Shown here: positions 7,506-38,691 of the stretch, piece after piece | Position numbering within the stretch: the stretch's first letter is position 1 | Layout of the letters: each line of letters starts with the position of its first letter | Assembly (NCBI GenBank): GCA_002269645.1 | Contig: NIVC01000566.1 | Span: 62,001 to 126,000 of the forward strand | Reading direction: 5' to 3' | DNA from: Macrostomum lignano | Lineage: Eukaryota | DNA: 64,000 nucleotides | The notes under the pieces: generated by a model | Told to the model about the DNA's origin: nothing | Database searches by the model: none | What the model saw: the letters and a program-made list of their open reading frames with translations, nothing else | Made by a program: the position numbers and the translations under genes

Positions 7506-9036
7506 TACTGAATCACTTTCTGAATCACAGCGCGACCTTGCATGACAAGAAGGTCGATCTGTCAACCTGTCACTCCTCATCCATTCAATCTAGACTCTGA
7601 GTTATTTCCCAAACAACACTAAAAAAGAACTGCTCATTTGAGAACGGAAACAACCGCCACGAATAAGAAGACGCTGAATGGAGCAGCGCACAGGGGGAAT
7701 TGGTAGCCACAGCCCCTGACAATGGCAGTGGCTTCACGGCGACAGTGCTTGGCAAGAGACTCCTGGCGCCGCGCAGTCATTGAATGACTCAGCGGGCACA
7801 CAGACTGCCGTGTCAGGCTGGCCGCAGACCCCCAGCCCCGGGGGGGCGGCAGACTGTGGGGGGCCGTCAGTTCGCAACTCCTCGGCAATTGTGGCTGGGC
7901 AGCTGACGGGCTGATAGAGTTAATAAATAATCATTTCTGGCCGCTGCAGGGGACGGAGGGGCGCCCCAATCGCTGTTCAGAGTTAATAATAGGTGGCGGG
8001 GCTCTTATCCTCAATTGATTATTGCCTGGCTAAACTGCTTGCTTTTAGAATTACAATGGGGGAGACGGGGAGGTGAATGAGTCACCGCCGTATCCTGGCC
8101 GGTGCACCTGGCGGAATCGGGTGGAATGTCGCCTGCGCGCCTCAGTCTGCGGTTTCCGCTAGCAGCAGCAGTAGCATGCAGCTTGGCTGCAGTAAGTGAA
8201 GCTCAATGAAACTCTAGCTGAATTATTGAGGAAATTTGATTTACCAAATGTGGTCTTGAATAGCGCTAGATCTAGATTAGCAAATCTATAAGAATAGAAC
8301 AGCAGATCAGGAACTCAAACTTAAGACAATTGAGACTTAAGAGCGGATGACCTCTAGACGAACCGAGAAACCGATCCAGGTGAGAATATCAATGAGACAT
8401 CTGGAATATAAGGGGTTCTCTCAGTGGCCATATGAGTAGGCAAAGATGTAGATCGACATCGACAGCTCAAGTGAGCACGGCCTTTGAGCTTTGAGTCGGC
8501 ATCGCCGGGGCACGGAAGACCGCCTTACGCATGCATTCACAGTGAATGGCGCCCGCAATAAAGCCATACTTAATAGCATTGACTGCTCAAGGAAGAGGTG
8601 GGAGCTGCTCCCTTGCCCCCGCGGCGACAGTCTGCAGTGAGGTGCATTGCTGAGCACAGTGGAGCAGCCCTCTCTCGGGTTGAGTTCCACCCCCCCCCCC
8701 CAGAGTCGCTGAGTAGAAAACAATGGCCTGGTCTAAAAATAGCAAAAAGCCATTTGGGCATAAAAGCTGGGATCTCCTCTCCTTCTTTTCTACAGTGCAA
8801 AAATACTATTTGCCAATTTCTGACTAGAGCGATGACTCATCCCTCAGTGTGGCTTGAGTAGCTGTTGAGAACAGCGAGCTTCAGGTGAAAACAGAATGAA
8901 AGCTCAGAGCAAAACCTCCTTCCTGGGTGGCAAGGAATTCTCGTGAATTTCTATTCGCTTGCAATGAATTTGCTTCGATGCTTTTCATCCTCTTCTAAAA
9001 TACAAGAATGTAAACAGAAAAATTGCATGAAAGGCA

Positions 9037-11362: not shown

Positions 11363-12019
11363 AGTGCGGGACGGAATGGCAAACAGAGAGCAGGCAAGGT
11401 TGCTAGCCAAAGTCTACTAGAAGATGCGCAGGTTAACGAACTGATTAATTAATCGCCAGTGCTGTTACATGATTTAGCCGTGAGATCAACATATTTCTGC
11501 TGCGAGTAGACGCTGATACCGATTGAGAAAGGCCATCCTTTCCAATTCCAATAAAATTAAGCAGGCCAAGCTGTCCAGGCCGGAACTTCTCAGGAGAAGC
11601 AGCAAAATGAAAGTCTGATTTTTGCCCCTCTCGATGATGCGCTAGGAAGCTGGGAGGGGATGGGAGCATTTTTGCACTGCCAGATGCGCGATGGAAATGC
11701 ATTGCTGGTAGCGAAGGACTTTGGGGATGTCTTCAGTGGCTCAGCCCGGGGGGAGGGGGGCAGAGAGCTCAGCCTGGACTCTTGCCAACTCCGGCGGGAG
11801 ATCTCATGACCGGCCGGGGCTCCCTGCTTTCTCCTTAGTTGAGGCTGCGAGCAGACTTAGGCTTGGGAGAGGGAGTGGCGGCTGTGTTGGGAAGAGCTGA
11901 ACTTCTCTCTGCTGCCCGCGGCACGTGATCTGGGGGGGGGGGGGGGGGTTGGCCGCTGCCGCAGGGACCGCCTGCCGCCTTGCATGAACGGCGTTTGCAA
12001 GCTGGGGACTGGAGATCAG

Positions 12020-12790: not shown

Positions 12791-14069
12791 CTAAGTATGA
12801 AAGCCGATCATTAAGGCATAAACCAACTATGGTTTATTAATCAATCCATCTATGGATATAAACAAAATCGATCCTATCTCAAAGCTTCACTTCCCTCAGG
12901 GCATTTTTGGCCCTTCGAACTGTTATTTTTAAACCTCCTCAGCCTCTTTTAACTCCGCTTGGCGGATGTCTCCTCCATCGATAAATCCTGCTCTCGTAAT
13001 CACTTCTCCCAGCATGGAACAAGAACAAAACAAGCTGTACAAATAAAAAGAACAGGTTGTACTTAGCCAACTTAACATTTTCGACGCTAGAAGTTCCATT
13101 AAATGCGACTCCTATCGGTGCGTCCTTGATTGCGCCGTCTTTAGCGCCCTTAATGGCGCCGTCTTTAGCGCTCTTAATGGCGTCCGCTTTGGCTGGCACC
13201 ATTCGAGGCATCATGCTTCGAAAGCAACCCCCTCCCTGTGCATTCAGTCTGCCCAGCGACCCCAAAATCGGACAGGCTAATATTTGCTAAAATGTAAGTT
13301 TTTGCTTCGCATCAGCGCACGCCGGGGAGCCCCACGGCGGCACGGGACACACTGTAATAATTTGTGCACCGGGAATGCCGCTGGCTCAGTCCGTTTCTCA
13401 CTCAGCAAACAATTAATTAATAGTTGGATCGAGTTCCTCCAGAGTAAACAAAGTGTCTGGTCTGGGTTTTGTACTTTTGGACTCAGAAGCGGCTGAGAAC
13501 TTCGGTCGGCTCCAGTGATGGTGCTGGATGATTCTGTGCAGCTAAGCATTGAATCTAAAATGAGCCAAGCCGGCTACTGATCCTGATTGCATTAACTGCA
13601 TATTGTAAAAGTGCATTACAATACGATTCGATGCCTCCGCACCATATTTAAATGATCGATAACCTTCATTGACCCTTTGATAGTACGCCGCATAAGCCTT
13701 TAAAGGGGCATCGCTACCCTCCACAGCACTTACGGGCGTAGAATGGTCATCGCTACCCTTCCTGACCAGGGAGTTGCATTGAAGCTTGCCACTAGATCGA
13801 CTTTTCCATGGCACCAATGCTCAACAATGCAGGGTCGCGACAATTGACTTTGGCACGATCCATAACTCAATTCATTTCGCTGCTCTTGCAATGTTTAACA
13901 ATGAAAAGATTATTTTCATTCCGCTTTTGGTTCTGACGGTTTGACTGACAGGAAGGGTACGTTTTGAAGCAACGCAATGAGGACATGATCGCGTTAGGTA
14001 ATGCAGATATAGTGAATAAGACTGCAACAGAAACTTTGACTTAGTTTTTTGTTTGGTTGTTAGCGCTTT

Positions 14070-15000
14070 TGAGGTTAGCGTTTGGGGTTGGCGGTTTTGG
14101 GGGGTAGGTGATTTCGGGGGTTGGCGGTTTGGGGGGTTGGTGATTTCGGGGGTTGGCGGTTGGGGGTTGGCGTATTGGGGGTTAGTTTGTTGGGGTTTGG
14201 CTTGTTGGGAAGTTGGCGTGTTGGGGTGTTGGTGCGTGTTGGGGTTGTCGTGTTGGAAGGTTGGCGTGTTGAGGATTGGCTTGTTGTGGGGTCGGCGTGT
14301 TGAGGGGTTGATGTGTTGGCTGGTTGGCCTGTTGGAGGGTTGGTGTGTTGGGGATTGGCGTGTTGGGGTTTAACTTGTTGGGGGTTGGCGTGTTGGGGAT
14401 TTGCTTGTTGTGGGGTCGGCGTGTTGAGGGGTTGATGTGTTGGCTGGTTGGCCTGTTGGAGGGTTGGTGTGTTGGGGATTGGCGTGTTGGGGTTTGACTT
14501 GTTGGGGTGTTGGTGCGTGTTGGGGGTTGTCGTGTTGGAGTGTTGGCGTGTTGGTGGTTGGCTTGTTGTGGGGTTGGCGTGTTGGGGGCTGACGTGTTGC
14601 GGGGGTGTGCGTGTTGGAGGGTTGGCGTGTTGCGGGGGTGGGCGTGTTGGAGAGTTGGCGTGTTGCGGGGGTGGGCGTGTTGGAGGGTTGGCGTGTTGCG
14701 GGGGTGGGCGTGTTGGAGGGTTGGCGTGTTGCGGGGGTGGGCGTGTTGGAGGGTTGGCGTGTTGCGGGGGTGGGCGTGTTGGAGGGTTGGCGTGTTGCGG
14801 GGGTGGGCGTGTTGGAGGGTTGGCGTGTTGCGGGGGTGGGCGTGTTGGAGGGTTGGCGTGTTGCGGGGGTGGGCGTGTTGGAGGGTTGGCGTGTTGCGGG
14901 GGTGGGCGTGTTGGAGGGTTGGCGTGTTGCGGGGGTGGGCGTGTTGGAGGGTTGGCGTGTTGCGGGGTGGGCGTGTTGGAGGGTTGGCGTGTTTGCGGTT
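14070..15000. repeat. G/T-rich repeat resolving into a 33-bp unit (gcgtgttggagggttggcgtgttgcgggggtgg)
   Basis: Degenerate 5' part, near-perfect 33-bp units from about 14610 to 14990. Confidence 0.95.
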
Positions 15001-15547
15001 GGTGCTGGCGGGTTGGCGCGTTTTGGATTGGAGCAGAGGGCTGCCAAGAATCCCTACTATTTCACTTATTACTTTTTCTTAAAACACTCCTGACGAAGCC
15101 TTGTCTCAATGCTCTGGGAATCTTAAAATAAAATATCCCCAGAAACAAGCTTCAGGATCGCTACCGGCTTTACCAAGAAGGCAGATGGTAGTGTTTTAGG
15201 TGCTCTGGTGTTGCTCTAATTAATTATTCACGACTTGCTTACTGGCCACGTTACTCAATTTTCCTCCGCATTCAGGTTGAGTCTGTCGGGCGGTAGCTGA
15301 AAATGAGCTGAGAGCGCCGAGAGCACCACATGGTTTCGCAGCTGGATAGGTGGAAATCGGGATATTTGATGGCTCAGCTGACTAGCAGCAGGGCTGGTTG
15401 AGAGAAGAAGTTTCTGAGCACAGTAAAAGCGAAGATCATTGATTTTTATATCGTTAAATGACTCAAATATTTCTTGGTAGTCGTTGCATCCGATTTTTGG
15501 CTTTGTCTGGGGCTTACTGTGTGTTTAATGTTAGTCTTACTCATTAC

Positions 15548-18714: not shown

Positions 18715-21013
18715 TTAAACTAGACGGGCCGGGACCTCCAGGCAGACAAAGTCGACTTCCTTGGCATCGGCGAGCTCCCATTTGACGACCACGCCAACCT
18801 GGTCGGGTTAAACAACGGCAGGTGCAAAAATAAACAAAAACGGACAAGAGTTAGAGCCGTGGAGTCAGATACGACACGAATAAGCAGACAGAACTTGAAT
18901 CAAAGACAGAATAGGATAAACTGGCATGAATCTGGAGCACTCACAGCTGGGTAGCTGCTTTTGACCTGCAGAGTTGATGTGTACACAGCCTGGGTGCCGG
19001 CCTTCAGCGGGCAAGCAGGTGCCATCGAGTCGCAGGCGTTCGTGTCGGGCAGCGGAAACGGCACGGGGATTTTGGCGACAATGCCGTGAACCACCGCCTT
19101 CACGCTGGTGCTGTTCTCGGACGGTGTGAAGGTGATCTTGATCTGTGCATTCGTGCCTCTAGGCAGCTCGCAGGGAATCTTCGGACACGGGGTCACGTCT
19201 AGACTGTCGATCTTGCCGGCTTTGGAGCCTGCGAAGGGTTTGGAATACAGCTAGAGAACCCTGTGAGCAACGGGATTCCGTAAAACCCATCATGGGTTAA
19301 TATGAAATAGCCTACTACCGAGTAGCGAGAAAAGAGTGTGAAGCGAATCTCTTATGGCGTGTGCAAAAGTTTAGAGTGGGAAGCAGTCATGCCCATTCCA
19401 CCGACCCCCGAGCACGAGCAAGCACACGGATACGCTCACATAGGATGCACAGCGGCCCTGATTTTCTCAGAGTGTCACGCATGTTCACACTGTACCTTGG
19501 TGGTTTGCCCTTAATATGCGAGAATTTCCCCACAAGTCCTTGAAAATACATTTATGTACGAATCCAGAATTTGGTTAATCTAACTTAACCGTAAATCCAG
19601 TCTCTCATAAAAACCTTGGTACAACAGACGCCCATGAAAACAGAAGGGGTAGCAGCCCTCTAGGAGATTCAGAAGGGCAGCAGCACTCCAAACACTCCAA
19701 CCTCTCCATGAAACACAGAAGGGGCAGCAGCCCATGAAACAGACTTCAGGGGCAGCAGGCCTCCATGAAACACAGAAGGGGCAGCAGGCCTCCATGAAAC
19801 ACAGAAGGGGCAGCAGCCCTCCATGAAACACAGAAGGGGCAGCAGCCCTCCAGGAAACACAGAAGGGGCAGCAGGCCTCCAGGAAACACAGAAGGGGCAG
19901 CAGGCCTCCAGAAAACACAGAAGGGGCAGCAGCCCTCCAGGAAACACAGAAGGGGCAGCAGGCCTCCAGGAAACACAGAAGGGGAAGCAGCCCTCCAGGA
20001 AACACAGAAGGGGCAGCAGCCCTCCAGGAAAAACAGAAGGGGCAGCAGGCCTCCAGGAAAGACAGAAGGGGCAGCAGCCCTCCATGAAACACAGAAGGGG
20101 CAGCAGCCCTCCATGAAACACAGAAGGGGCAGCAGCCCTCCAGGAAAAACAGAAGGGGCAGCAGGCCTCCATGAAACACAGAAGGGGCAGCAGCCCTCCA
20201 TGAAACACAGAAGGGGCAGCAGCCCTCCAGGAAAAACAGAAGGGGCAGCAGGCCTCCAGGAAACACAGAAGGGGCAGCAGCCCTCCATGAAACACAGAAG
20301 GGGAAGCAGCCCTCCAGGAAACACAGAAGGGGCAGCAGGCCTCCATGAAACACAGAAGGGGCAGCAGCCCTCCAGGAAACACAGAAGGGGCAGCAGCCCT
20401 CCATGAAACACAGAAGGGGAAGCAGCCCTCCAGGAAACACAGAAGGGGCAGCAGCCCTCCAGGAAACACAGAAGGGGCAGCAGGCCTCCAGGAAACACAG
20501 AAGGGGAAGCAGCCCTCCATGAAACACAGAAGGGGCAGCAGCCCTCCATGAAACACAGAAGGGGCAGCAGCCCTCCATGAAAAACAGAAGGGGCAGCAGC
20601 CCTCCATGAAAAACAGAAGGGGAAGCAGCCCTTTATGAAACACAGAAGGGGCAGCAGCCCTCCATGAAAAACAGAAGGGGCAGCAGCCCTCCATGAAAAA
20701 CAGAAGGGGCAGCAGCCCTCCATGAAACACAGAAGGGGCAGCAGGCCTCCAGGAAACACAGAAGGGGCAGCAGCCCTCCAGGAAACACAGAAAGTGCAGC
20801 AGGCCTCCAGGAAACACAGAAGGGGCAGCAGCCCTCCAGGAAACACAGAAGGGGCAGCAGCCCTCCAGGAAAAACAGAAGGGGAAGCACATCCTTTGACC
20901 CCGTGACGCAGTGACATGGCAGTCAGCTTACCGCAGTCGACAAACTTAGTGACAGGATCGCAGATAACGCCGCCGATCAAAAGAGCCAGCAAAATAGCCA
21001 CTGAACGAAGCAT
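18715..21013 (-). CDS. NPC2: NPC2 / ML-domain sterol-binding protein, 149 aa, 3 exons
   Basis: Exons 21013-20932, 19228-18945 and 18798-18715 join in frame with GT-AG sites. Signal peptide MLRSVAILLALLIGGVIC followed by the NPC2-like pattern FVDCGS...VTPCPKIPCELPRG...VPFPLPDTNAC...CPLKAG...SYPA...VVVKWEL...FVCLEVP. Confidence 0.93.
19700..20890. repeat. 29-bp minisatellite (gaaacacagaaggggcagcagccctccag) filling NPC2 intron 1
   Basis: About 40 tandem copies starting ~40 bp inside the exon 1 donor. Confidence 0.97.
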
Positions 21014-22068
21014 TGCGGCTTGCGAGCTAGAAAAAATTTCAGAAACTGTGAAGCAACGGATTCAACAGAAGCTGCAGAATCAGCACGCCTGCCTACCAAT
21101 TGAAACAGTTGATCTATATAGAAGTGTTTATGCAGCGAGACAAAACTGCACACAGCTTACAAGTTAGAGAAAGTCTCTAATTGCACTGAATAACTGATGT
21201 AGTGTATTTCTAATCAAAAGACAGCATCTGTCAGCTTAAAAGTTTTAGCCAATGCAAGTTAAAACAACGCCAATGGTACTACGTATCGTGCAGATAGAGC
21301 TGGGTTTTCAGATGTTTTGACGCAAAAAACGCAAATTATACTACTATCTGAAAATGAAGTAAGTAGTATACAAAAACGCTATCCTAAGCGTGATATATGG
21401 CAATATGTAGTTGTAATAATCCATGTGCTCATATATGTACATTAATTCCATGTACATTAATCCCTATCTATCTCAAATTGGATATGTACATTAATTCCAT
21501 GTACATTAATCCATATCTCAAATGTCCATGTCTATCCCCAATTCTATATGTACACAGTATGTGCATTAATCTACACTCTACATGTACAGTGTCATCCCCA
21601 GACGGTCTGAGCGCGCACCAAAATTACATGTACAATACTACATGTACGCAGAGGCGAGAATTACTAATCTCATCTACTACCAAATGAGTCAACTAACAGT
21701 GTAGCGTACATCATGTATAAGTATTTACAATGAAGATATATTTACATTTAATCAGTAGCATATTACAGGAATCGAGACATGTACACCATCACCAGCAAAT
21801 AGAATATACAGAAAATTTTACATTGTTTTTTCAATAATTTTCTCTTCATAAATGATTTTAAACAGGTTTGACATGTAAAATATGTACAATAGATTTTTAC
21901 ATTGGCAATTTCGCCACACACAATACAAAAATGCTCTATGTACATGAATTATATATATACAGCAAATAGATTCTGATAAATACAGCAGTATTACAATGCA
22001 AATTATGTACAATAAATAGATTTTACTAATTTAATATTGCAAAATGTACATTGAATTGTCAGTCACCA

Positions 22069-25000
22069 TTATTTATAGCCATAAGGCCTGCTGCAGGTCC
22101 CGTACACACGTTTCGTCAGGACGCGCTGAAACGTCTTGTCCATACTAACAGTGTGTATGGTGCAAGACGCCTTGTCGCGCCTGAACTGAAACTGCGGCAG
22201 TTTCAGGGAGCCGCCGTGTAGTAGGGCACTGCGCAATTCGTCGCTGCGTTCCCGAATCTCCGGAGTCAGGCGGATGCCCTTGCATTTCAGGACTTGGCTC
22301 TGGACTCCGGCCGCATCCTCGACAATGTAAGTGTAGAGCTTGGGCCCTCCACTTACAAAGTCGGTCATCCGGCTGCCTGCGGGCACCTCGTCGGTCCACA
22401 TTCCGAGGCTCGTGCCATGGGGCGGCTCCCATTGGCCCTCGGAATGCCGGTAAACGACCCTGGGTGTGGGGAGAGAGATAATTAGTTCCACATGCCAACT
22501 ATTCAATTCTAAAATAATTTATCAATGCATTACTTACGAGTCAGTTCGCAGTAAATGGCCCGTTCGCCGAGCCCCTCCAATGCCTCGTACAGGCGCAGCC
22601 GGGCCTGCGTGGTCGTAAAGACACCGATTGGCACATTGGAGTACCGGAAGGGCCGCTGATTAAAGTAGCGGTGCCGGTACTCTAGCAGCATAAACTCGCT
22701 GCCAATCGGTTCGCAGGCCTTGACTTTGAGGTTGGGGTCGGTCAGCCGGGCGAGCCAGTCCTCGTAGCTGGATACTATTTCTGTCGATGTCAGGTCGTCA
22801 CGCTGACAAAATTTGCCCCAGAGCCTGTGTGTTGTGAAAAGAAGTGCTACTATTAGTAGAAGAAAATCGTTTAAAAAACAGAATTTATAATTACTTACGA
22901 ATTCAAAAAGATTTTCGCTACAAAGCGAAGTCCGGGGTTGGGCTCGACCTTGTCCAGCGTGACGCCCTCCTTTGCAAAGAAATCGGCAATATAGGCGGCC
23001 TTGTCTTCATCCGACATGCCGGGGGAGCCGCTCGACTCAGCCTTCAATTTGAGGAAGGTGCTGACATAGTCACTGAACAGACCGGTCCGCTTCTCTGTCC
23101 AGTAGGCTAGCTCGTGCACCACCTGCAGCCGGTAGCCCAACTGGAAGGCCTTCCGCAGCTCCGGCGTGGCCCAGGTACCAGTCAGTGCCCGCTGCTCGTC
23201 TGAGTGGTCACAATCGTCGCCGCACTGCTGCTCCATACAGGTGCGGCAAAGCCCAAAAAAGAGCTTCTTTTGCACTCTGTACGGCAGCAGCGGAATGTGC
23301 AAATTTGACGGCGGCAACACAGTTACTTTGGCAATACCAAAGTAACTAGCCAGCGCGTCAGAATCTAGCACTTGCGGCGTCGGATGTTGCACCGGGTGGC
23401 CAATCGGGTACGGGTCCTTTGACTGCACCGTCGGGTACAGAGAGACCTGCCAGTTGAAATAAAACATTATTTTCATAAACTGTATTTTTGCAAAATATTC
23501 TACTATATTAGTAGTATCACTACTCACCACATCCCGATATTTGAGAGTCTCAGTCTCGCTGGCCACAGCATGCGGGATAAAACACTCTACGCGGCCGCCA
23601 TAGAGAGCATCTTCCATCTTGAGTGGAGCGCGCAGATGTGCAGTTGCGGCGATAAAGTCGGCCTGCGGTGCCAATACAGTGTCGTATTCATGCTCCCAAA
23701 TGACACGAACACTGTAATTGTGCCGCTCCAACTCGCGAGTGAACCACTCGGTCTCGTGGCGGATATGGCTCAGAGGCTGCCGTTTGAGCGGGTGGACAGC
23801 ATCCTGATCAGGCATGCACTGCTCGCAGCCATGGTAGAAACAGCCATGAAACTGCAAGACAGTGTTGCTCGCCTCATCAAAACCATCCACCTTGCGGCCG
23901 AGAATGACCGCCTCGCCGTCAGTCGAGTCGCAGGTGCGCAGCCGCCCGCCAAATTCGGTGGCATTCAAATAGGTCAGCCACTTGCGCGCCTTGAATGACT
24001 GCTGGTCGGCCTGCCGGGCAATCACGCCGACCGAGTTGGGCTCCATAAATCGGGTGGTGAAAACGGCCATTGCCAAACTGGCAATCGTATTGGCCTGTAC
24101 AAACGGTTCCAGGCCGTCGCAAATGTCTCCAATTATTGCCCTGTACTTGATACAGCCCTCGCGAAGCAGGACTGTGTCGCTCAAACAATAATCGAGATAT
24201 TCCCGATTAAAGTTGAACAACTCGCCCTGTCGCGAGGCTAGCCAAGCACAGATTGAGTCATAGTCCTTGTTTGCTTTGCCGCCATAATACTCAATGGCCG
24301 GGTAGGAGCCCACGTAGTTCCAATTAGCCGGCTTGTTGAACTCGTGGGGAAACGTCCCCTTGGCCAGCTTTGTGTCAGCGAGCCCCAGCGCTTTTGGGAA
24401 TTGCGCAAGCGGGATTGGTATGAAATTTAACGAATCTTTGAATACCAATTTATCCACCGTCATGCTCATTAGCCGGCTGCCCTGGAACAGTACTTGTGGC
24501 CGCTTCTTGGCCAGGCCGTTGAGTAGAGCGCCAAGCAGTAGAAACGAATCGTAGCCTGATGCATTATGCGCTACAACAATGGCGCCGCCTCGGAAAGCTG
24601 TGCTCAGCCAGGCGAAAAATGCATTCAGCGAGGCCGGGCCCACAGACACAAAATCGGCCATTTGGCAGGCGCAGTCTGAGTGGCTGACGCAATTGGAGAA
24701 TTCCTCCCCCAGATCGCGGCCAGTCAGACAATTGGCGGCGCTATGCAGGCCATTGCAGAGGCGGCAAGTCTCGCGCGGAAACGCCCGGCCGGAGCAGGTC
24801 TCGCAGCACGTGACGGCAGTCACCAGGTGCACGTGATGCTGCTTCTCCTCGTCCGTGTATGTTTCCGTATCGTAGAACACGTACGGCATAGTTGATGCTT
24901 TCACTTTGGGAGCCTTGACGAAGCACAAATGCGAGCCGGCCTCGTCGTACTGTTTACACAGTGGGCACTTGATGTGCCCGCATTTGTGCTCCGGCTCCTT

Positions 25001-27550
25001 TTGACCGGCTTTCAGGTCTTCGCAATACCCGCAATTGGGGCAGACACGGGTTGAGCTGCAGCGTGACCGCCCCGCCCGGTTCTTTCGGCGGTGGTTGTCG
25101 AAGCACTGCTGATTGTAGCACTTGAGGCCACAATCAGCACAGCGTTTGTAGTCACGCTGCAGGCTTTTGCAGTCGGTGCCGGGCACTTTGCACTGAGGGC
25201 AGGTGTTGGCGCACCTGTGTTCTCTAGACATGCAGTCGTACGGTTGCTGGCAGCGGTCGCAATAGCGGCGGGCTCCGAAAAATGGCGGCACCTTGCACAC
25301 CGCGTTAAAGTGTTCGCCAATTAGGTGCAGATTCAGCACTTCGCGGCCGGGCAGGGCATACACGCATGTATTGCCCTCCTCAGCACTGTATACCCGGACG
25401 CCGAAATCTCGGCCGGGCGACTGGGCGTTCAGAACTGCCAGCAGTTGGGTGAGCACATCAACCCCGAAAGGCCCGGCCTGTGCAATGGTTGATAAAGACT
25501 AAAACATTTGTATATTAATAAAAATGCAAATTAAAATGTGCAAGAACATTTTTTACTCACCGAATACAATTTGGCGGCAATCTGAAGCTCCCCAGTCAGC
25601 TTCTTCTGCATTGGGGAGTCGGCCTTGATTGTTTTCCACGTGTTCTTAGTGATGGCTTTGGCCTGCAGATCGGCAAAGGCCTTGGCCACCACCAGCGCTC
25701 GAATGAGACAGCGCTTATCGCTGTTGGCGATGATGACATAATTGCGTCCCCCAATTGAATGCCTGGCCTGAATGTGGCGCTCCGCCGCATCTAGGCTGCC
25801 GCAGCCGCCCCGCGGGACCCAGGCCTTGAGCAAAAACAATTTAAAGTTGTTGCCCAAGACACTGGAGTCCGACTGCAGAACCTTCTTGATATGTTTAAAT
25901 ATCAACTCTGCAGTGAAGCGGGCGGCGCGGACCGGCGGGACATTAACCGTGAGCAGCATGTTGTCGGCAGTCAACTTGGCCGAGATGAAATCGTTGACAT
26001 TCGGGTCGGCGCAAAGCACAGAAATTATGCCACCAAACGTGGCGCGAATATCAGTGGTATCGGTGAACGACACCACATATTCTACCCCCTTGGCTCTAAA
26101 CTTAGGCAGGGCTTTCGCCCCGCCAAGACGCGCAATGAAGCCTGAAAAATGGAGGGTTTTGAAATTAGAATTGCGAGTGAATGACTCATGAAATAAAATC
26201 AACTCCTTACCATCGCCTTCGACAGTGTCGGGCTGGGGCGGGGGTTGAAATTGAGCCAAATCTGCAATAAAAATGCGCATGGTGACTAAAATTCTGACCG
26301 CTTGGAATTTTACAACTGTCAAAAACTTTTGATTGATTGCCTGCAGCAGCAGCAATTTTATCGCCCCACCCCAAGCAACAAAAATCGGCGAGTTGTAAAA
26401 ACCCCAACTCGGCACGTTCCGACACGTAGCAACAAAAGAAATGTGGGGTTGATTGACCCCCGTTTCGAATTTTAGGTTGTCAAAAATGTTTGATTGATGA
26501 CCCTGATAACACAGATCCTGCCACAGCAGACATTGTAAAATTTAAGAAAACCCCTATCAGCACGTGTCTCCATTGTGCCTCCTTGACACCTAGCAACAAT
26601 ACCGCGCGGCTGCTTTTGGGTTTTTAAAGCTGTCTGATTAATAACCCTCACTGTAGCAGCCAAGTTTTATTGCTGCCAAAACCCCTACTGTCAATTGCAG
26701 CGGTGATTACATCATCATGCTGAGCCCAAAAATCGGGGTTGATTTTATCACTGCCGCCTGCCCACCCCCCCCCCCGCTGAGTCACGTTCGCGCCGCAGGA
26801 TTGCTGTTTTTGCTTCTCTCTAGTTCAAGGATTAGTCATATACTGCCCCTGGAATTTTATGACTATCCTCTACAGGCATTATCTGGCTATACTGCTGCTG
26901 CTGCGGATATTCTCTAAAACTCTGTTATTTCAATAGGCCTGAATTGAGAAATCCAGTTTCCTCTTTTTACTTCAACATCTATGGCAGGAGGAAATTCATA
27001 AATTTTAAGCCAAAATGAATGCTAAAGATGAAAAGCAGTAGTTTCAAAGAAATCACTATATTATTTCAATAAGCATGAATTTAGAGTTTGCAAATCACAC
27101 GAATACAAATGAATGCTGAACCAAAAGCAGTTCCTCCCTTTACTTCAATCTGCGACAGACAGTCCGAAGTCCGAATCCGAATTTCAATAAGCTGAATTTA
27201 GAGTTTGCAAAGCAACTCCGAATGCGAAGGGTGAAAAGCAGTTTTACAGTGGGCCTAATATTTCAATAAGCCTGATTTTGAGTTTGCGAAAGCCAAATGA
27301 ATTCTAAAGATGAAAAATCAGTTTTACAGAGAACAGCCCTATATTTTTCAATAATCCCGAATTTAGAGTTTCGTAAAAGACAAAGACGAAAAAGAAATTT
27401 TTACACAGACTTGCAAGACTCACCTAGTTGTCTCCGCTTTGCAGCCGGAGGCTGTGACTGCTGCTGCTGCTGCTGCTGCTGCCTCGATGGGCCGGCCTGC
27501 CCCCACAATGCCGATATTGCCGCTTCCGCAGCAGAGCGCTTCGATGCCAT
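22069..27550 (-). pseudogene. Protein-primed family B DNA polymerase (pPolB), ~1311 aa predicted, 7 exons, 1-bp deletion in motif C
   Basis: Exons 27550-27424 (inferred), 26261-26211, 26141-25561, 25477-23528, 23446-22899, 22824-22538, 22459-22069. Motifs: ExoI YDTET, ExoII AHNASGYD, ExoIII YCLSD, VSR-like FHGCFYHGC...IWEHE, motif A DVVSLYP, motif B KIFLNSLWGKF, motif C YC[D]TDS, C-terminal KR...PYGY. All splice phases are consistent once one base is restored between 22545 and 22546. Confidence 0.88.
26920..27400. repeat. Degenerate ~85-140 bp repeats (atttcaataagc.gaatttagagtttgc...) in predicted pPolB intron 1
   Basis: Core recurs near 26925, 27063, 27181, 27261 and 27346. Confidence 0.7.
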
Positions 27551-27691
27551 TTCGATGGGGAAGGTAGATGGTTGTTGATGCTGCTGATGCTGCGGCTGCT
27601 GCTGCTGCTGCTGTTGTTGCTGATGCTGCTGTTGTGGTTTCTGCTGCTGCTGGCTGCTTCTGCGGATGCGGCTGCAGCAGCTCTCACCCGC

Positions 27692-27699
27692 TTTATATA
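27692..27699 (-). promoter_or_regulatory. Candidate TATA box (TATATAAA) for the pPolB transcript
   Basis: Minus-strand GTATATAAAG about 140 bp upstream of the inferred ATG at 27550, followed by a CAG-rich leader. Confidence 0.5.
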
Positions 27700-30600
27700 C
27701 CCCGCAAGAGGGAGGGTGGGGTAGGGGCACGAGAATTGTGCGTGATTTTCTTTCCCGGGTCTATATTCTCCAGATTAGTGTACGATTGAACACTCCATTC
27801 CGCATTTGGTATAGAAAAGTTGGGGTCAAAATTACCCCGCCAATTCTTTTCTCATGCGGTATTTTATTGGATCTGAGCGGAGCCATCCAACCGGCACTCT
27901 CGCAGGAGTGAAATGGCGACTTCGTCAGAGTACAGTCTCTCAAAGAAGAAGACCGCTTCCTCTTGCAACATATCTTTTCGACTTGAATCGGATAGAAAAC
28001 GGTGTTTATCCAGAAAACAATTGGCAGAAGCTGACCAATAATAGCTAAATACAGATGAAAAATATGAAAGATAACTTCTGTGGTTTTTAAGGCCCGCCTG
28101 TCTCTGCGAGAAAATGGATGTCAAAAATCGCTGTATCAATTTAATGACCTGGGGGAAATGGGGCTTGTGTGCAAAGCATCCGATTGACAGAGGCTTGGGG
28201 AAGAGTTAATGGTCGATGAAAAGCTCTTGCCATCATCTAAAATATCCATCAAAGAGTAATAGGTGACAGCCCCTGTCTCGAGCCAAAAAATCAGAGAGAC
28301 AGAGTTTTCTACTTCTGTTTACGTAATGTTTAGGGATGGACCTGGGGTTATAGTGACAGAGAGTCAGTTATGGCATTTACGCGGTAGTAAAGAATTGCCT
28401 TGGTGAGGCTGGGTTAGGTGTTGTGCTGTTCTCTCCATATTAGCGAACATTAATAGTCCTGGGTTGAATTTTGATATGGCTAGAATGTATAGCGGAGAAT
28501 CGTTGAATTGAAGGGTGATTCAACATGCAAAGTATGCAACAAAACCGATTCAGTGCATCTAAAAGAGGCTGTTGGGAGCTTCAGAACTGAGAATAACGTT
28601 TAAAATAGCATCAATGACATGATTTAGTAATCGAAATCAATTGAATGCTGAAAACTTTAAGTTTAATAGCAGACTGTGTTTTTAGCCCCAATTTTACAGT
28701 GTCTATACAATATTTCCCCAGCTTCTTGGGCAATATACATGCCTATTTGAATGACAAAACAGCATTTTTGATGGTTTATTAGCTAAAATTATGATTTCTA
28801 TTGATAAAATGACAGATTTCGATCCATAAAGTAAGCATTTTAACGTTAAAAATCGAAAAATGAGGAAAACTCGTGTTTTTCATGAAAAAAATTGCATTAC
28901 TAGTAATTTAGCCTCCATTAACTATTTCTTGGGCTGGGCTGGCTGTGGACTTCCATGTGGGATTTATTCCTGCTTCGAAGCCGTCTCAAGTAAAGTTGAA
29001 ACGGCATTTGGGTAAATTAACTGTTGAAGTTTCCAGTGATGAAATTACTGATTTTTATCCACAAAGTCTAACTTTTAACGTTAAAATTAAAAAACTGTAG
29101 AAAACTCGCCTTATATGAAATGTGCTTTTTACGAGCTAGTAATTTAGCTTTTAATAAACTTGGACGGAATTCCAAACTTGGAGAGGTCAGTGGGTGATTC
29201 ATTCCTGCTTCGAGAGATCGAACTTTCATAGAGTCTGAAAGCTTGAAGTGAGAGGGCAGGGGAAGCGATAGAATTGGCATAGCAGCACGTTTTTGGGCGG
29301 GTGGACTTCACTACTTCTAGTATACCGCATTGGCCATAGTGCCAAAGTATTTCTGTGACAAAACACATCTATAGAATTCAGTCTCGGAATTGTATGCGGA
29401 GGAGACACTGATTCATAGGCTGTGTACATTGACAGATGCAGGGGTATTGGGTCGATGCAGTTGAAGGTTGACTCGGATTTGCTCAGATTCGTGGGGTTGA
29501 TGTGTGCATTGAAAGTTAGTTTCTTGCTAACTGGGGCGGCATGGATGACGTAATTGGAGAAGAGGGGTTTTGCTGAATGAGGTTTAATATAGGCTCCGTG
29601 CTGTGAAAAGATCTGTTTGTACACTGAAAATGGAGAGAGGGTCGAAATTCCTTGGCATTCAGAAGGGTGACAGAGAGAAACAGGGACAAGTGGTTCAATT
29701 CGATTTGCTTTATAGGGGTCTGCTGAGGGGTGGATGTTTTCGAACAAGTCTTGGGGTTGAATTTTGAATATAGCCGAAGATAAAGGGTGATTCAACATGC
29801 AACATAATTAATTCCATAGTGTACACCAGCGTCAGTGGCATATTTTGCGGATTAAAGCGCGACAAGGGGTCTTGTACCATCCACACGATCAATATGGACA
29901 AGACGTTTCAGCGCGTCCTGACAAAACGGGTGTACGGGGCCTGCAGCAGGCCTTATGGCTATAAATAATGGTGACTGACAATTCAATGTACATTTTGCAT
30001 TATAAAATTATTAAAATCTATTTGTTGTACATAATTCAATGTACATAAAACATTTTTGCATTGCAGTATTGCCAAATTTATCAGAGTAAATCTATTTGCT
30101 GTATATATAATTCATGTACATAGAGCATTTTTGTATTGTGTGTGGCGAAATTGCCAATGTAAAAATCTATTGTACATATTTTACATGTCAGACCTGTTTA
30201 AAATCATTTATGAAGAGAAAATTATTGAAAAAACAATGTAAAATTTTCTGTATATTCTATTTGCTGGTGATGGTGTACATGTCTCGATTCCTGTAATATG
30301 CTACTGATTAAATGTAAATATATCTTCATTGTAAATACTTATACATGATGTGCGCTACACGGTTAGTTGACTCATTTGGTAGTAGATGAGATTAGTAATT
30401 CTCGCCTCTGCGTACATGTAGTATTGTACATGTAATTTTGGTGCGCGCTCAGACCGTCTGGGGATGACACTGTAGATTAATGTGAGTGTACATATAGAAT
30501 TGGGGATAGACATGGACATTTGAGATATGGATTAATGTACATGGAATTAATGTACATATCCAATTTGAGATAGATAGGGATTAATGTACATGGAATTAAT

Positions 30601-32919
30601 GTACATATATGAGCACATGGATTATTACAACTACATATTGCCATATATCACGCTTAGGATAGCGTTTTTGTATACTACTTACTTCATTTTCAGATAGTAG
30701 TATAATTTGCGTTTTTTGCGTCAAAACATCTGAAAACCCAGCTCTATCTGCACGATACGTAGTAATGGTGTTCAGGAGGGTCAGGTCAGTGCAGACTGCA
30801 ACTGTGGTGTCTCTAATTTACTTTACATAAAATGGGGCCACTTTTGACCGAATTGGATGGTACACTGATTAAACAAAAACTCTCCGACTTTCCTAGAAAC
30901 GAAAAACTTGGCACATTGCTAGTAGTTCCACCAGTGAACGAGCCGAGGCCGGCGCCGCCGAAGGCGCCGACTGGCGGGGCCTCGGGCGAGTGAATAATTT
31001 CTACCCATGGCGGCCGAAGGCCCATCCCACGCACTTAAATTTATTTCGACATCTTTATGCAGTTTTGGTGGGTTTTTTGGGTAAAAAATGACCCTCATTT
31101 TATTATTTCGCCACTTTTTCCTACGAAGCTTCTTGAGTTTGCGCTTCAAAGCAGTGTAGTTGGATGCGCAATGCAAATATCTACAAGTGTCTAAAGTTTT
31201 GTTTTCCTACGATTCTGCAGTGCTGAGAAAATCGACAAAAATCGATTTTTAAAAAAATCACATGACTTTCACATTATTGCTCATTATAATTTTGAGAACA
31301 TGGTGCGAATAATCCGATTTCGAATTTCTATAGCATAGTTGCTGTACTATATTGGTTTAAATTGCCGTCGTCTGATTTCGCTGCTTTCGGCTTTATAAAT
31401 CGATCAGAAATCGATAATTTGTGATTTTTGGCTGATAGGGTGCCCGAAAAATTGATGATTAAAATTTTAAAAGAATGGTAGATCAAAGGCGGAAACGTCA
31501 GCGAGTTGTACTAATGTCTGGCTTAAATTGACCAAGTTTTTGAGTGTCTGCACCAAATGCTCATGTGTCAAAAGTGATTGGAAATCGATCAGAGTAGTGA
31601 TTTTTTAATATTTTGCTTGAAATCAGGCAAAAAACGCAATAGGACGGCAATATTTTAATGACGGCTGATTTCCCACAAAACGAGGCATATTTGTGTGCAA
31701 TTTCTAGAGATTCGGTTCATTGGGTAAAAAATTATCGATAATAAACTGAAAACTTGACTTTTTACTTTTATGTTAGTTCCGGGGCTATTTAAACTGGAAA
31801 TGTTAGGAATTTGCACTGAAACCAATGCACAGTGTTCCATATAGTTAATTTAACATTTTACTTGAGTTTCATAACCATTCGATGTTCTTTTCAGGTAAAA
31901 AATGCATTTTTTGCACCAAAATTCATCAGATTAAGCTGCATACCGCTTTGCATAATTTGCATTTGCTTGCGATTGCTATTGCTTTGGCGTTAGGCTGACT
32001 TAAGCTGGTTAGAAAGGAAAGGAAAGGAAGGAAGAATCGTACATACAATGTACACACACCCGTCCCTTCCAAGTGGGGTTGTGGCGAGAGGGCTTGGCCG
32101 ATAAACGGGCGTCACGTGATTAGAATTTGGTGTTAAATTTAGCTCTTTAACAGCACATTCGAATTGCAAGCCCAGTACAAAGTTTGGCGGGGGCAAGCTC
32201 CAAGTCACTACGTGTACAATCCCTTCCCCTGACCAAAAGTTGAGATACGGCTTATGAAGTAGCAATGTACAGTGTTTTGGAATGATTTATCTATAGCTTT
32301 CTTTGCAACCCCGTTGGAGAAGAGGCTTGGGGTATCTTATGCCAGTTTACTATCTGATTGAGAGTACGAGTATTATGTCCCACAAAACTGGCCTGACTTT
32401 CCAAGCACTTAAGCTGATGATTGCTAATTGCTAAGAGGATCCTTCCTTGGGTATAACCCTGCTACGCTGTAGACTTTAGACAATTTTTTTAGATCGAGGG
32501 CCTATTAGAGAAGAATCCAGCTCATGGCTGCGGCTGCGGCCCAAATGAGAGGAAATTAAAGTGAATAGAGGGAGAAGAGAAAAGAGGAGATAAGAGATAA
32601 AACGAGAGAGAAGTGAGAGGAGAGGGGGAGACTAGAGAGAGGTTAGAGAGGAGAGAAACAGAACAGACAAAGAGATACAATGGGAGAAGTAGAGATTTGC
32701 ATTTTTCTTGAGCTTCTCAAAGTTCTTTTTCATCGGTACAAAACTAGGTTTACCAAGTAGTATGAAGACCCACGTCTAAAAAGAAGCCCGTTCACTGGTG
32801 GCAAAAAGACGTGTGCGTCTTCATACTACTTGTACCGAATACCGATGACGAAATAAAAGCTAGGGTTAGGGTTCATAATGAGTTTCTGATTGGTTTCTGT
32901 TGGGCGGACGGGTCTGTTA

Positions 32920-33972
32920 CAGGGATTGCCCAAATCCCAATCCCGGGATTTCAAATCTAAATTTCCCGATCCCCGGGAAAAATTGTTGTTTGTATTTTTG
33001 TTACAACAAAAAGGGTGTTGTAATATGAACATAATTGGGCCCAAAACTAGTTTATTATACTGCGCTAATTTCCGTTAATTGCCGCACGTCGCGTGGCGTC
33101 TTTTTAAACCGTTACTGTTACCCGAGTGAAAAGTAAAAGTCTGTCAGAATTTTTGTTTTCGTTTTTCAAATTACTTAATGGATAGACTTGGCAATTGGTA
33201 TTGGTTGGTAGTTGTCAGTTGATAAGCTTCCGCTTGGTTGGTTGGTACCTCGTAGTTGCTAGTTGCTACGAGCTCAGTATTTGATGCTGTGTGAGAGTGA
33301 GATCAGAGTAGATAGTCTCAATAGATCGAGTTAATTTAGATCAGCTTCAGAAGCTTAATCAATACTTTTCGTTTTATACACTCCTACTCGATACTCGATA
33401 AACACATCCATGTATATTGCATTTGAAATTTGTGGCATAACAGATTTTAATGTGAAATTTATTGCAATGTAAATTTTGATATTTGGTTTACTTCTTAACT
33501 ACTAATATACTAGTAATTTTATACAACTTAAATACGTCACTCACAAGATAATGCTGTTTTTCATCTACAAATAGATCATTAACTCTCGATCTACAATCAA
33601 AGATGGAAGCAAAAAACGTTTAGCCTTAAAATTCCAGCCCGGAAGCTTAAAAATCTGTATTTTTCTGATCCTGGGATAGGCCGAATTCCGGCGATTATCT
33701 TGTGACGTATTTAAGTAAGTAGTATAAAAGTAATAACTAGTAGTAAAGAAGCAAATCAAATATCAAAATTTAAATTGGAATAAATTTCACATTTAAATCT
33801 GTGACGCCGAGTTTAAAAAGACGCCACGCGACGTGAAGGCAGTTAACGGAAATTAGCGCAGTATTATAACTAGTTGTGAGTCCAATTATGTTCATATTAC
33901 AACACTTTGTAAAAATAAAAACAAAAATTTGTCCCGGGATTCGGGACCCCAATCCCAGGATTGCAATCCCTA
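32920..33972. mobile_element. Degraded non-autonomous inverted-repeat element (hAT-like termini C/TAGGGATTGC)
   Basis: About 190-bp imperfect inverted arms (32920-33110 vs 33790-33972); no matching TSD found. Confidence 0.55.
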
Positions 33973-36134: not shown

Positions 36135-37477
36135 TCAGAAAATGGCATGCAGACTGTAGTGGAAGAGCGAACAGCGGTTAAAATACCTTGAAATAAGCTC
36201 AAGTACATCTACGGAAAGTAGAATCGCAGTTTTTGACAGCCATTCCTGCTTCATCTGGTGCCGGGAGAGCGACAGCCGCACTGAGATGTTTGTGTACAGA
36301 GGCATCGCCTGGCGACTGACGATCGTGTACGATTCCTTTCTGAGCGCGTTCAGCCCGTCCTCATAGTGCCTGGCCCGCCAGGCCATAAAGTGCGTGTACC
36401 CGCCCTCGATGCGGACGGCCTTGGGGTGGCGCACCATCTTGTAGCGACCGAGGGTGAGCGGCGGACGGGACACCAGCATGCCGGCCTCCATCGTGCGGGC
36501 GCTGATGTCGTCGTCCTCGTTGCCCCAGCCCCAGTACACGTTGGAGAAGCCGTTGATGCGGAAGAAGTTCTTGCTGCTCATCGCTGCACACGACCGATGG
36601 GAAGAGAACTGGTTTTAATCCCGCTTACTAACAACACGTCAAACGATACATATCGGCATAGCTACTCACCCAGCACAGCGCCGAGGTAGTTGTAGAACAT
36701 CACGTGATACCGCATCTCGTCAATGGCGGATGCCAGGTGCCTGGCGTTCTCATCGCACAGGTACACATTCCGATCGTGCTCGGGAATCATGTCCACATCG
36801 TGGAAGATGAAGCAGTCAAAGCTGGCCAGCTTCAGGGCCTCCACCACGCCAACATTTATCAGCATGCCTCGGTTGAAGGGCTCTGGTCCTGTCTGGGTGA
36901 TGCGGCAGAGAGGATTTTAAAAGCTGCCTCTTTACCTGCTTAACTCACCGCTCACCTGCTGAACTGCTGAACTTACTTCTTAACTCTTAACTTCATTGCT
37001 CACCTGCTCAACCACAAACACAGTGTACTTGATCAGCTGCCTTCTCAGCATCCGATGCAGCCGGTTCAGCAGCAGCCGTAAGTGAAAGTCCCGATTCCTG
37101 AAGGCCACCATTACGGCTACGTGTTGCAGTGGGGTGCAGTTTGATGGAGCCCAGCTTCCGCCAGGACGCAACCTCATTTGTGTCGGAACTTCGGGACCAG
37201 CCAGAGCAGTCTCAAGATGATGCAGCTCTGGTGCATTATGCATATCTATTGGCTGCAGCTGCAGACTGTCCCGCCGCAGGTAACAGCGGCCCGACTTCAG
37301 CCTTGAGTCGTCGGCTGGCCAGTCTTCAATGAAGACGTCCGGCTGCGAGTAGCGGCACCTGCTGCTGTAGTTGAAGAGGGCGAACACCCACAAGCACAGG
37401 TACAGGCACAGCAGCAGGTAGCGGCCCGCGACAGACATGTGCCTGCTGACGCGTATCGGGTACCCGCGGCAGAACAT
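36135..37477 (-). CDS. GT7 beta-1,4-galactosyltransferase-like protein, copy A (~381 aa, 3 exons)
   Basis: Exons 37477-37004, 36892-36670, 36583-36135. Type II TM segment LLLCLYLCLWVFALF, VAFRNR, PFNRGML, DxD motif FHDVD, NGFSNVYWGWGNEDDD, YKMVRH. Confidence 0.9.
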
Positions 37478-38691
37478 GGCGAGGGTAAAGAGCTTCGCTT
37501 GCCTTGCAGCACGACAAGGGCTGAGTTCAGCTTCGTTTTCTGAATGTTTGGATGGGGGGCATTGGCTACACATCAGATCCAGTACACAGGTGCGTACATG
37601 TACTTTACCTTTGTCTGTCAATTTTTGTGCTGCCACAAGGATACAGGATAACTTACTGTTCCTCACCTCTCAGACAGGAGACAAGACGCCAGCTTTGCCT
37701 CCAGACTTTCGCAAAGATAGATTTAGTTATATAGATTCGCTTAGTATTCAACGGATAACTTGTTGAAAAATGGGCAGCAAAAAGTTTGGCATCTCTGCAT
37801 GCTGTCATGCGTACATTAGACTTACCTGCCTTGCACACGGTCAACTCGAATAGAAAATACGATCTCGGTTTTGAAGCGCTATATGGAAAGACGGGGCCGT
37901 TGTTTCTTCTGTTTCTTTTTAAATAAAAATATAGTTTTACAGTTGCAATTGTGAGGCTACGGACCAATAAGAGAGCTCTGTTTCATCAATGGGAGACAGG
38001 CAGTGCATTCTGCTAGACGCTTCTAAACATGCCGAGCCTTGTGTGGGCCGTTGCAAGAAGCAAGCTGACAAAAAGACTCATGCGACAGAAATGTTTTGAA
38101 TCGCGTCAAACCATTGCGAGGCATCGAGCTATCGAACAGATATGTAGAAAGCTTGAAATACTGCTGCTGTGCAGAGAGAACAGAGCAGAATTATTGAAAT
38201 AATTGAAGCATATGCAAAAAGAGGTGCCGCGTGCACCGAACGGGATGATGGTACGAGTAGAATTCAAAATTGGTACCAGAAAGGCTATAAACAACATTTT
38301 CATTTAAAGTTTAATTCGGCTATTTAGAATGACCATATACGCTTGTATAGCTTCTCAAGTTATATTTGGAGTGCAAAATATCACTTAATTGGATATTTAA
38401 AATTTAAGGTTTTTATGACAGCCGGCACTGTGCCAGGTGCCTTCAGTAGGATACTCGTACATGTTAGATGTACGCGTATAAGCGATGGGCTACTTGCGAG
38501 TAAGCATACGTAGAAGCGATTTTGAAGTATTTGATACACAATGCAAAGAGCCATGTATTGTTTGTCTAAAGATTTTTTGTTTCACACGTATAATTGTATA
38601 ATTTTCAATAAAAAAGTTTCTTAATTGAAGCGTTCATTTACAGGCTGAGCAAAGCTGTTTAGGCCTGATATGAACTTTGATATTAACAGTA

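What the first reader, a model, noticed from the sequence alone, without database searches (positions are those of the whole stretch)
22460..27423. Six spliceosomal introns in a viral-type pPolB, three splitting catalytic motifs A, B and C
Seen: GT-AG introns of 1162 (inferred), 69, 83, 81, 74 and 78 bp at 26262-27423, 26142-26210, 25478-25560, 23447-23527, 22825-22898 and 22460-22537, with GTRAG donors and pyrimidine-rich acceptors. Three fall in DV|VSLYP, NS|LWGK and DTDS|VVY. The 69- and 81-bp introns are multiples of three with no stop, so the ORF track reads through them; retention of the 81-bp one would put 27 aa inside motif A. Established: Polinton pPolB genes are generally described as intron-poor or intronless. 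Inference: host splicing could act as an on/off switch for the replicase.
Basis: partly seen in the sequence, partly recalled or inferred. Interest (0 to 1): 0.78.

Follow-up and report, generated by a model that had tools for sequence, protein, structure and literature searches.

The report
Intron-laden, capsid-less self-copying transposon
A flatworm carries dozens of copies of a small virus-derived mobile element whose DNA polymerase gene is interrupted by six host-type introns, three inside the catalytic motifs and five seen spliced out in RNA-like data; the element has no integrase or capsid genes and likely borrows its integrase from intact, intron-free Polintons in the same genome.

Summary
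All six GT-AG introns lie at the stated coordinates. Introns 2-6 are cut out precisely in contigs of RNA-like runs (three studies) and in neither DNA-like run. A second family (62-72% protein identity) has all six introns at the same codons. Exons are under purifying selection (dN/dS 0.13), and indels pile up in introns. The gene is not in a normal Polinton. It sits in a 9.5-kb element with long terminal inverted repeats, ACTAC ends and a 6-bp target duplication, and has no integrase, ATPase or capsid gene. Such elements carry pPolB, often PC4 and sometimes dUTPase. Complete Polintons in this Macrostomum genome are intronless, with AGTAGT ends. Three introns in motifs A, B and C exceed chance (P 3e-5 to 0.01). 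The on/off switch is untested. No report was found in 10 literature searches. Verdict: new variant, a nuclear, helper-dependent pPolB replicon.

The parts
21272..21277 (.). left copy of 6-bp target site duplication
   Evidence: identical hexamer at 30764-30769; a contig of run X1 joins 21271 to 30764, i.e. an empty site exists
21278..22185 (+). terminal inverted repeat, 5'-ACTAC end; its inner part overlaps the last ~120 nt of the pPolB frame
   Evidence: arms 91-100% complementary to 29852-30764
22069..22459 (-). pPolB exon 7 (after motif C, to stop)
22460..22537 (-). intron 6 (78 nt), in the Ser codon of motif C
   Evidence: skipped in 6 of 6 RNA-like runs, 0 of 2 DNA-like; same site in 18 family-2 loci
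22538..22824 (-). exon 6; this copy is frameshifted in its last codons (motif C)
22825..22898 (-). intron 5 (74 nt), in the Ser codon of motif B
   Evidence: skipped in 4 of 6 RNA-like runs; 18 family-2 loci
22899..23446 (-). exon 5 (SLYP to motif B Asn)
23447..23527 (-). intron 4 (81 nt), phase 0, inside motif A
   Evidence: skipped in 6 of 6 RNA-like runs; lengths 81-88 in family 1, 65-121 in family 2
23528..25477 (-). exon 4 (650 aa): end of OTU-like region, Cys-rich fingers, exonuclease, Vsr-like nuclease, start of motif A
   Evidence: Pfam DNA_pol_B_2 E 5e-28; family profile hits phi29 polymerase E 3e-7 and Vsr E 1e-3; OTU assignment is read from motifs plus PMC8502044, not tested
25478..25560 (-). 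intron 3 (83 nt), phase 0
   Evidence: skipped in runs X3, X2
25561..26141 (-). exon 3 (likely terminal-protein/OTU region; inferred)
   Evidence: 54-57% identical in family 2; Atlas neighbours unnamed
26142..26210 (-). intron 2 (69 nt), phase 1
   Evidence: skipped in run X1; same site in 16 family-2 loci
26211..26261 (-). exon 2 (51 nt)
26262..27423 (-). intron 1 (1162 nt), phase 1
   Evidence: not seen spliced; same codon and phase in 13 family-2 loci, 488-1188 nt
27424..27550 (-). exon 1 with ATG and a basic KRR-type stretch (possible nuclear localisation signal; inference)
27692..27699 (-). TATA-like box upstream of the ATG
   Evidence: sequence; similar boxes in other copies, divergent to PC4
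27700..29851 (.). non-coding interior; 28735-29801 resembles (about 73%) the polymerase-less palindromic satellites; other copies carry PC4 (and dUTPase plus a spliced gene X) here
29852..30763 (-). second terminal inverted repeat, ends GTAGT-3'
30764..30769 (.). right copy of 6-bp target site duplication

Best explanation
This is one copy of a ~9-10 kb Polinton-derived element that keeps an intron-split protein-primed DNA polymerase but has no integrase, ATPase, protease or capsid gene; the host spliceosome removes its introns, and the element likely copies itself from its inverted ends and likely inserts with an integrase borrowed from complete Polintons. Shown: the anatomy, splicing of introns 2-6 in family members, conservation of all six intron sites in two families, purifying selection on the spliced frame, and many independent insertions with 6-bp duplications. 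Inferred: Pol II transcription from the TATA-like promoter (divergent to PC4 in fuller copies); constitutive splicing; protein-primed replication of an excised linear form from the ACT-repeat ends, helped by the PC4 single-strand-binding protein and dUTPase where present; integration in trans; and co-mobilisation of non-coding palindromic satellites with the same ends. Also inferred: the introns were gained once, before the two families split, in a lineage that had become strictly nuclear. They would persist because a DNA replicon has no reverse-transcription step to erase them, and because inside motifs A, B and C only a base-perfect loss is viable. Escape from silencing of intronless transcripts is a possible added benefit (speculative).
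For: TIRs and TSD. 6-bp TSD in 29 of 30 end pairs examined, 27 distinct (pairs were picked by end motif). At least 44 DNA matches for family 1 and 111 protein matches for both families; matches are not copy numbers. Family 2 is TIR-PC4/pPolB-TIR of 8.8-10.1 kb. No integrase or ATPase profile hit at E<=1, and no capsid-candidate hit better than E 0.016, in 1288 frames from 14 interiors. Splice joints in RNA-like and not DNA-like runs. Indels: 179 in 6389 intron nt against 48 in 67211 exon nt over 29 copies; pooled dS 0.22, dN 0.028 over 17 copies. 115 Polinton-type integrase matches in the genome; sampled elements have AGTAGT ends. Relatives elsewhere have A, B and C in one ORF (5 of 6 viral loci). 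The one intronless relic of this polymerase type in the genome is decayed.
Against: The ends are 5'-ACTAC, while the integrase-bearing Polintons sampled here have 5'-AGTAG ends, so the helper integrase is not identified. No extrachromosomal form was shown. Run types are guesses, and contigs are 5-10% divergent, so family members are transcribed, not necessarily this copy. The deepest intron-6 contig most likely comes from a truncated copy behind a host GTPase gene. Unspliced intron sequence is also present in RNA-like runs. Many copies are broken: exons 3-7 are all in frame in 2 of 5 family-1 and 5 of 11 family-2 loci where all junctions were found, of 14 and 12 given; some breaks may be assembly errors. 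The survivorship account does not explain why the 1950-nt exon 4 has no intron.
Confidence: 0.68

Rival explanations
1. Splicing is a regulated on/off switch, as in the Drosophila P element (recalled): introns in the catalytic motifs are retained in some tissues, so that active polymerase is made only in the germline or in neoblasts.
For: Retention of intron 4, 5 or 6 would kill catalysis. Unspliced intron sequence is present in RNA-like runs. Intron 4 is 3n and stop-free in 15 of 25 family-1 copies. Motif placement exceeds chance.
Against: Frame-preserving retention is absent in family 2 (0 of 19) and rare for intron 2 (1 of 20, 2 of 16). Any frame-breaking intron would serve as a switch wherever it sat. 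Donors are consensus GTRAG-type in both families. There are no tissue data.
Confidence: 0.12
2. The three motif introns were placed or fixed by conflict: they break the conserved DNA sites that homing-type nucleases or recombination with rival pPolB genes would target, as inteins occupy three conserved active-site positions of family B polymerases.
For: P of hitting A, B and C is 2.8e-5 for named motifs and 0.003-0.009 by a conservation-weighted test. Archaeal PolB inteins sit at three conserved active-site positions, one at YGD|TDS (PMC549080 passages). Polinton polymerases in this genome carry Endonuclease VII domains, and this one a Vsr-like domain.
Against: The sites differ from the intein site by a few codons at motif C; the intein positions in motifs A and B are recalled, not read. 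There is no endonuclease ORF in the introns. No homing activity was found for these domains in what I read. The test is post hoc.
Confidence: 0.1
3. The element is one segment of a multipartite Polinton-like virus; other segments with the same ends encode integrase and capsids.
For: Many elements share the ends but lack pPolB. Bidnaviruses have segments with matching termini (PMC8502044 passage).
Against: The partners fetched are non-coding palindromes, dUTPase/gene X palindromes, or carry unrelated nested transposons. Only the best 40 candidates of 222 and of 292 were scored in the two end searches, so a rare partner is not excluded.
Confidence: 0.07
4. A host-domesticated polymerase gene multiplied by segmental or chromosome duplication.
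For: Introns and purifying selection are typical of domesticated genes. Some copies share a TSD and so are duplicates.
Against: 27 distinct TSDs, TIRs up to 99.7-100% identical, an empty site in one run, and many broken copies.
Confidence: 0.03

Closest known systems
Polintons/Mavericks (eupolintoviruses, Alpha adintoviruses) with Vsr-containing pPolB
   Same: pPolB of Pfam DNA_pol_B_2 with a Vsr-like insert; long TIRs; 6-bp TSD; short trinucleotide end repeat; PC4 and dUTPase also occur in complete Polintons here. Best non-Macrostomum hits are 35-40% identical.
   Different: 9-10 kb against 13-25 kb; no integrase, ATPase, protease or capsid; ACTAC rather than AGTAGT/AGAGAG ends; six spliceosomal introns, whereas intact Mavericks are reported intronless (PMC8097293).
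Non-autonomous Polintons (recalled from Repbase literature; the primary paper was not held)
   Same: Depend on a helper for integration; share TIR ends with satellites.
   Different: This one keeps the replicase under strong selection (dN/dS 0.13) and has spread as two old families; it is half-autonomous.
Integrase-less integrated PLVs of insects (Ca_PLV1; PMC11296320 passage)
   Same: Integrated without a detectable integrase; trans integration proposed.
   Different: Those elements were searched for, and discussed as having, divergent capsid genes; no spliceosomal introns are described in the passages read.
Introner-invaded eupolintoviruses of dinoflagellates (PMC12166617, abstract and section 6)
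   Same: Polinton-like elements that contain intron-type insertions.
   Different: There the insertions are recent, mostly outside coding regions and selected against. Here they are old, fixed, unrelated to each other in sequence, spliced, and in the active-site motifs.
PolB inteins (PMC549080)
   Same: Three intervening sequences at conserved active-site motifs of a family B polymerase.
   Different: Inteins splice at protein level and home by endonuclease; these are short AT-rich GT-AG introns at slightly different codons.
Adenovirus E2B polymerase and P-element transposase (both recalled, no call)
   Same: Spliced pPolB mRNA with a short first exon; a DNA transposon whose enzyme depends on splicing.
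   Different: Neither has introns within polymerase motifs A, B and C; regulated retention is not shown here.

Membership tests
Polinton/Maverick | protein-primed family B polymerase | tested here: met
   protein priming itself not assayed
Polinton/Maverick | retroviral-like integrase encoded in the element | tested here: not met
   no hit inside family-1 or family-2 elements
Polinton/Maverick | packaging ATPase, protease, major and minor capsid genes | tested here: not met
   no room and no convincing hit with profiles from the genome's own complete Polintons; the profiles were shallow (2-7 sequences)
Polinton/Maverick | TIRs of 100-1500 bp and 5-8 bp TSD | tested here: met
Polinton/Maverick | end motifs (AGT)2, (AG)3 or (AC)3A | tested here: inconclusive
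   ends are ACTAC(T/G), a repeat-type end not among the three listed in PMC8097293
Polinton/Maverick | length 13-25 kb | tested here: not met
   8.8-10.4 kb without nested insertions
Polinton/Maverick | intronless core genes | tested here: not met
U2-type spliceosomal intron | GT-AG ends, consensus donor, pyrimidine-rich acceptor | tested here: met
   branch-like motifs 26-41 nt from the 3' end in 7 of 10 introns
U2-type spliceosomal intron | precise removal in RNA, not in DNA | tested here: met
   introns 2-6; intron 1 not testable in those data; run types are guesses
Introner | introns similar to one another as copies of one transposon | tested here: not met
   only weak local scores among 10 introns of two families; age could have erased similarity
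Segmented (bidnavirus-like) virus | partner segments with the same termini encode virion proteins | tested here: not met
   sampling incomplete
P-element-type splicing switch | tissue-specific intron retention | not testable with these tools
   only contigs were available

The most novel reading that the evidence does not exclude
A distinct class of eukaryotic mobile element: a strictly nuclear, spliceosome-dependent linear replicon that has given up both the virion and the integrase, parasitises complete Polintons for integration, mobilises its own palindromic satellites, and carries introns deliberately fixed in all three polymerase catalytic motifs as a licensing or anti-homing device. It would be a living intermediate between polintoviruses and linear plasmids or pure transposons.
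Probability: 0.3. Interest if true: 0.88.

Novelty: new variant of a known kind. Interest (0 to 1): 0.74.

Why it matters
Whether Polintons are viruses or transposons is an open question, and their intronless genes fit a viral phase. A lineage that needs the nuclear spliceosome to make its replicase, lacks capsids, and yet is spreading under purifying selection shows the virus-to-transposon transition completed. It sits beside intact intronless Polintons in a transgenic-capable model flatworm. It also gives a clean case of six dated intron gains in a gene whose ancestral state is known, with a non-random link to catalytic motifs that parallels inteins, which makes ideas on intron gain and retention testable.

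Tried and rejected
Segmented-virus idea: 19 loci with family-1 ends and 9 polymerase-less loci with family-2 ends were fetched; no capsid or Polinton integrase belonged to them. One held a nested canonical Polinton; others held LINE, LTR, P-like or mariner insertions. Intron transfer from host polymerases: motifs A, B and C of host Pol delta, alpha and zeta are uninterrupted (names by motif, recalled). Introner origin: no convincing similarity among the introns. Intronless copies: one contiguous motif-A hit in the genome with one codon pattern, a decayed AT-rich relic, against 3 control hits. With that relic as query, all 149 candidates were scored and the other 99 matches lie on contigs already listed for the two intron families. 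Pox_A32 search of the genome found nothing, although such ATPases exist there, so that search is insensitive. No RNA holder was on record as RNA. The metagenome scan with exon 4 found no relative. A single-sequence fold never finished and is not used. Three key papers were not held, and no supplements were read; Repbase or Dfam may already hold these families. Ten literature searches found no description of them.
Full report
Observation. The gene runs on the minus strand from an ATG at 27550 to a stop at 22069 in seven exons. GTRAG occurs once in 3757 exon nt. The large exon hits Pfam DNA_pol_B_2 at E 5e-28. A 40-sequence family profile hits phi29 polymerase (E 3e-7) and Vsr endonuclease (E 1e-3) in the PDB. 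The phases join exons 1-6 in frame, but exon 6 does not run into exon 7: this copy has a frameshift in motif C just before intron 6. Among loci L001-L030 it is the only such case where the motif-C junction was found, so it is a private lesion or an assembly error.

Are they introns? Three lines of evidence say yes. First, reads. Contigs of six RNA-like runs from three studies skip exactly intron 2 (1 run), 3 (2), 4 (6), 5 (4) and 6 (6), with CT..AC ends on the plus strand. Two deep DNA-like runs show none of these joints. The caveats are these: run types are guesses; 8 joints were hidden; the contigs come from family members; unspliced sequence is also present; and the deepest intron-6 contig matches a truncated copy that begins at the same base, just behind a host URGCP-like GTPase gene, so it is probably 3' read-through. 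Second, divergence. Over 29 family-1 copies there are 179 indels in 6389 intron nt against 48 in 67211 exon nt, and pooled dS 0.22 against dN 0.028 (ratio 0.13) over 17 copies compared with the window copy, which are not independent pairs. Third, conservation. A second family, 54-74% identical by exon, has all six introns at the same codon and phase, with unrelated sequence and variable length: intron 1 in 13 loci, 2 in 16, 3 in 9, 4 in 19, 5 in 18 and 6 in 18.

The element. The gene lies in a 9486-bp unit (21278-30763) with ~900-bp TIRs, 5'-ACTAC...GTAGT-3' ends and a 6-bp target duplication. One run has a contig across the empty site. The genome holds at least 44 DNA matches for family 1 and 111 protein matches for both families. 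UniRef names the closest proteins as Macrostomum lignano DNA-directed DNA polymerase models; one such public model starts inside intron 1 and skips part of exon 5. Family-2 elements are TIR-PC4/pPolB-TIR, 8.8-10.1 kb. The fullest family-1 form seen adds a spliced gene X and a dUTPase (10.4 kb). The window copy lacks these. Of 30 end pairs picked by motif, 29 have a perfect 6-bp TSD, 27 of them distinct. No integrase or ATPase hit at E<=1, and no capsid-candidate hit better than E 0.016, was found in 1288 reading frames from 14 interiors. Both families have polymerase-less companions with the same ends, mostly non-coding palindromes of 3-9 kb.

Helpers and ancestors. The same genome has complete Polintons with PC4, rve integrase, A32-like ATPase and single-ORF polymerases of 1000-1480 aa. 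There are 115 integrase matches, and the elements sampled end in AGTAGT. Their polymerases give no BLAST hit at 1e-3 to the intron-bearing one. In a 46-sequence FastTree tree, rooted at midpoint and with those unalignable polymerases left out, the two families form one clade (support 1.0) sister to a metagenomic protein; other relatives are about 35% identical. Five of six viral-collection relatives carry motifs A, B and C in one ORF. The only intronless member of this polymerase type found in the genome is a decayed relic. The uninterrupted state is therefore likely ancestral, and the introns were likely gained once before the families split.

Motif placement. With six uniformly placed introns, the chance of hitting A, B and C is 2.8e-5; generous versions give 0.0006-0.009, and a conservation-weighted test 0.003-0.009. 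These tests are post hoc. Host Pol delta, alpha and zeta have these motifs uninterrupted, so the introns were not copied from host paralogues. The introns are not recognisable copies of one introner.

Mechanism. Most likely (0.68) this is a nuclear, helper-dependent replicon. The host spliceosome makes the replicase mRNA (shown for introns 2-6). The polymerase would copy an excised linear form by protein priming from the repeat ends (inferred from the family; end repeats serve jumping-back according to PMC8097293). A Polinton integrase supplied in trans would insert it with a 6-bp duplication (inferred; the AC versus AG end mismatch is unresolved). Introns would persist because there is no RNA intermediate to erase them and because only exact loss is viable in catalytic motifs. 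Protection from silencing of intronless transcripts, shown for human HUSH (PMC8770142, abstract only), is a speculative benefit. Rivals are a regulated splicing switch (0.12), conflict-driven placement akin to inteins (0.10; PMC549080 passages), a segmented virus (0.07) and domestication (0.03).

Comparison with what is known. It works like the replication half of a Polinton but fails membership on integrase, virion genes, size and intronlessness. Passages read state that intact vertebrate Mavericks have no introns (PMC8097293), that nematode Maverick core genes are intronless (bioRxiv 2022.07.12.499685) and that no EMALE gene has introns (PMC8547959). Introners occur in dinoflagellate eupolintoviruses, mostly outside coding regions (PMC12166617, abstract and section 6). 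Integrase-less integrated PLVs exist (PMC11296320 passage). PMC10748475, PMC8502044, PMC5718144 and PMC6431247 were searched by passages and gave nothing on spliceosomal introns in pPolB. Ten searches found no description of this element, but three key reviews or primary papers were not held, supplements were not read, and Repbase was not available. An earlier scan note on another genome describes a capsid-less, integrase-less Polinton relative in a dinoflagellate (e1-7769355; unchecked); nothing was noted for this sequence.

Verdict. This is a new variant of a known kind; interest 0.74.

Noticed in passing
window 806-4262: DNA transposon with 231-bp TIRs, CAC...GTG ends, a near-perfect 5-bp duplication and an open 718-aa ORF (1636-3792, minus) with no Pfam hit; Atlas neighbours include RAG1-like clusters at 0.85-0.86, so likely Transib/Chapaev-like.
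   Followed up: partly
L071 (G000:C990, about 344730-346120): A truncated copy of the element lies about 700 nt behind a 1781-aa URGCP-like GTPase ORF and is probably transcribed and spliced as part of that gene's 3' UTR.
   Followed up: partly
L111, L112, L116-L120, L170-L172: Abundant non-coding palindromic (foldback-like) elements of 6-9 kb share the ends and 6-bp TSDs of the two polymerase families; some are near-perfect hairpins.
   Followed up: partly
L075-L076, L115, L128, L040: Gene X, a low-complexity spliced gene (75-nt GT-AG intron) between PC4 and dUTPase in fuller family-1 copies; no Pfam hit.
   Followed up: no
L122, L127, L060, L051 and others: Canonical Polintons and other transposons are often nested in or next to these elements; several loci are Polinton clusters.
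   Followed up: no
L150-L151, L157-L158: AGTAGT-ended elements of about 8 kb with PC4, integrase and capsid-candidate genes but no polymerase hit: a possible complementary partner class (integrase without replicase).
   Followed up: no
L104-L105 (G000:C2285): Tandem Endonuclease-VII pPolB genes with dUTPase and deoxynucleoside kinase, resembling a larger endogenous virus.
   Followed up: no
window 8896-11450, 14000-15100, 19580-20930: Long tandem arrays (20-nt unit in the first) with strong strand skew.
   Followed up: no
window 36135-37669, 45360-45992, 53950-55533, 61627-62667: Host genes: two beta-1,4-galactosyltransferase-like genes with short GT-AG introns, a TFIIF-alpha in one long ORF, and a protein kinase.
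   Followed up: no
window 38733-40349 and 33015-33905: Two further inverted-repeat (foldback/MITE-like) elements.
   Followed up: no
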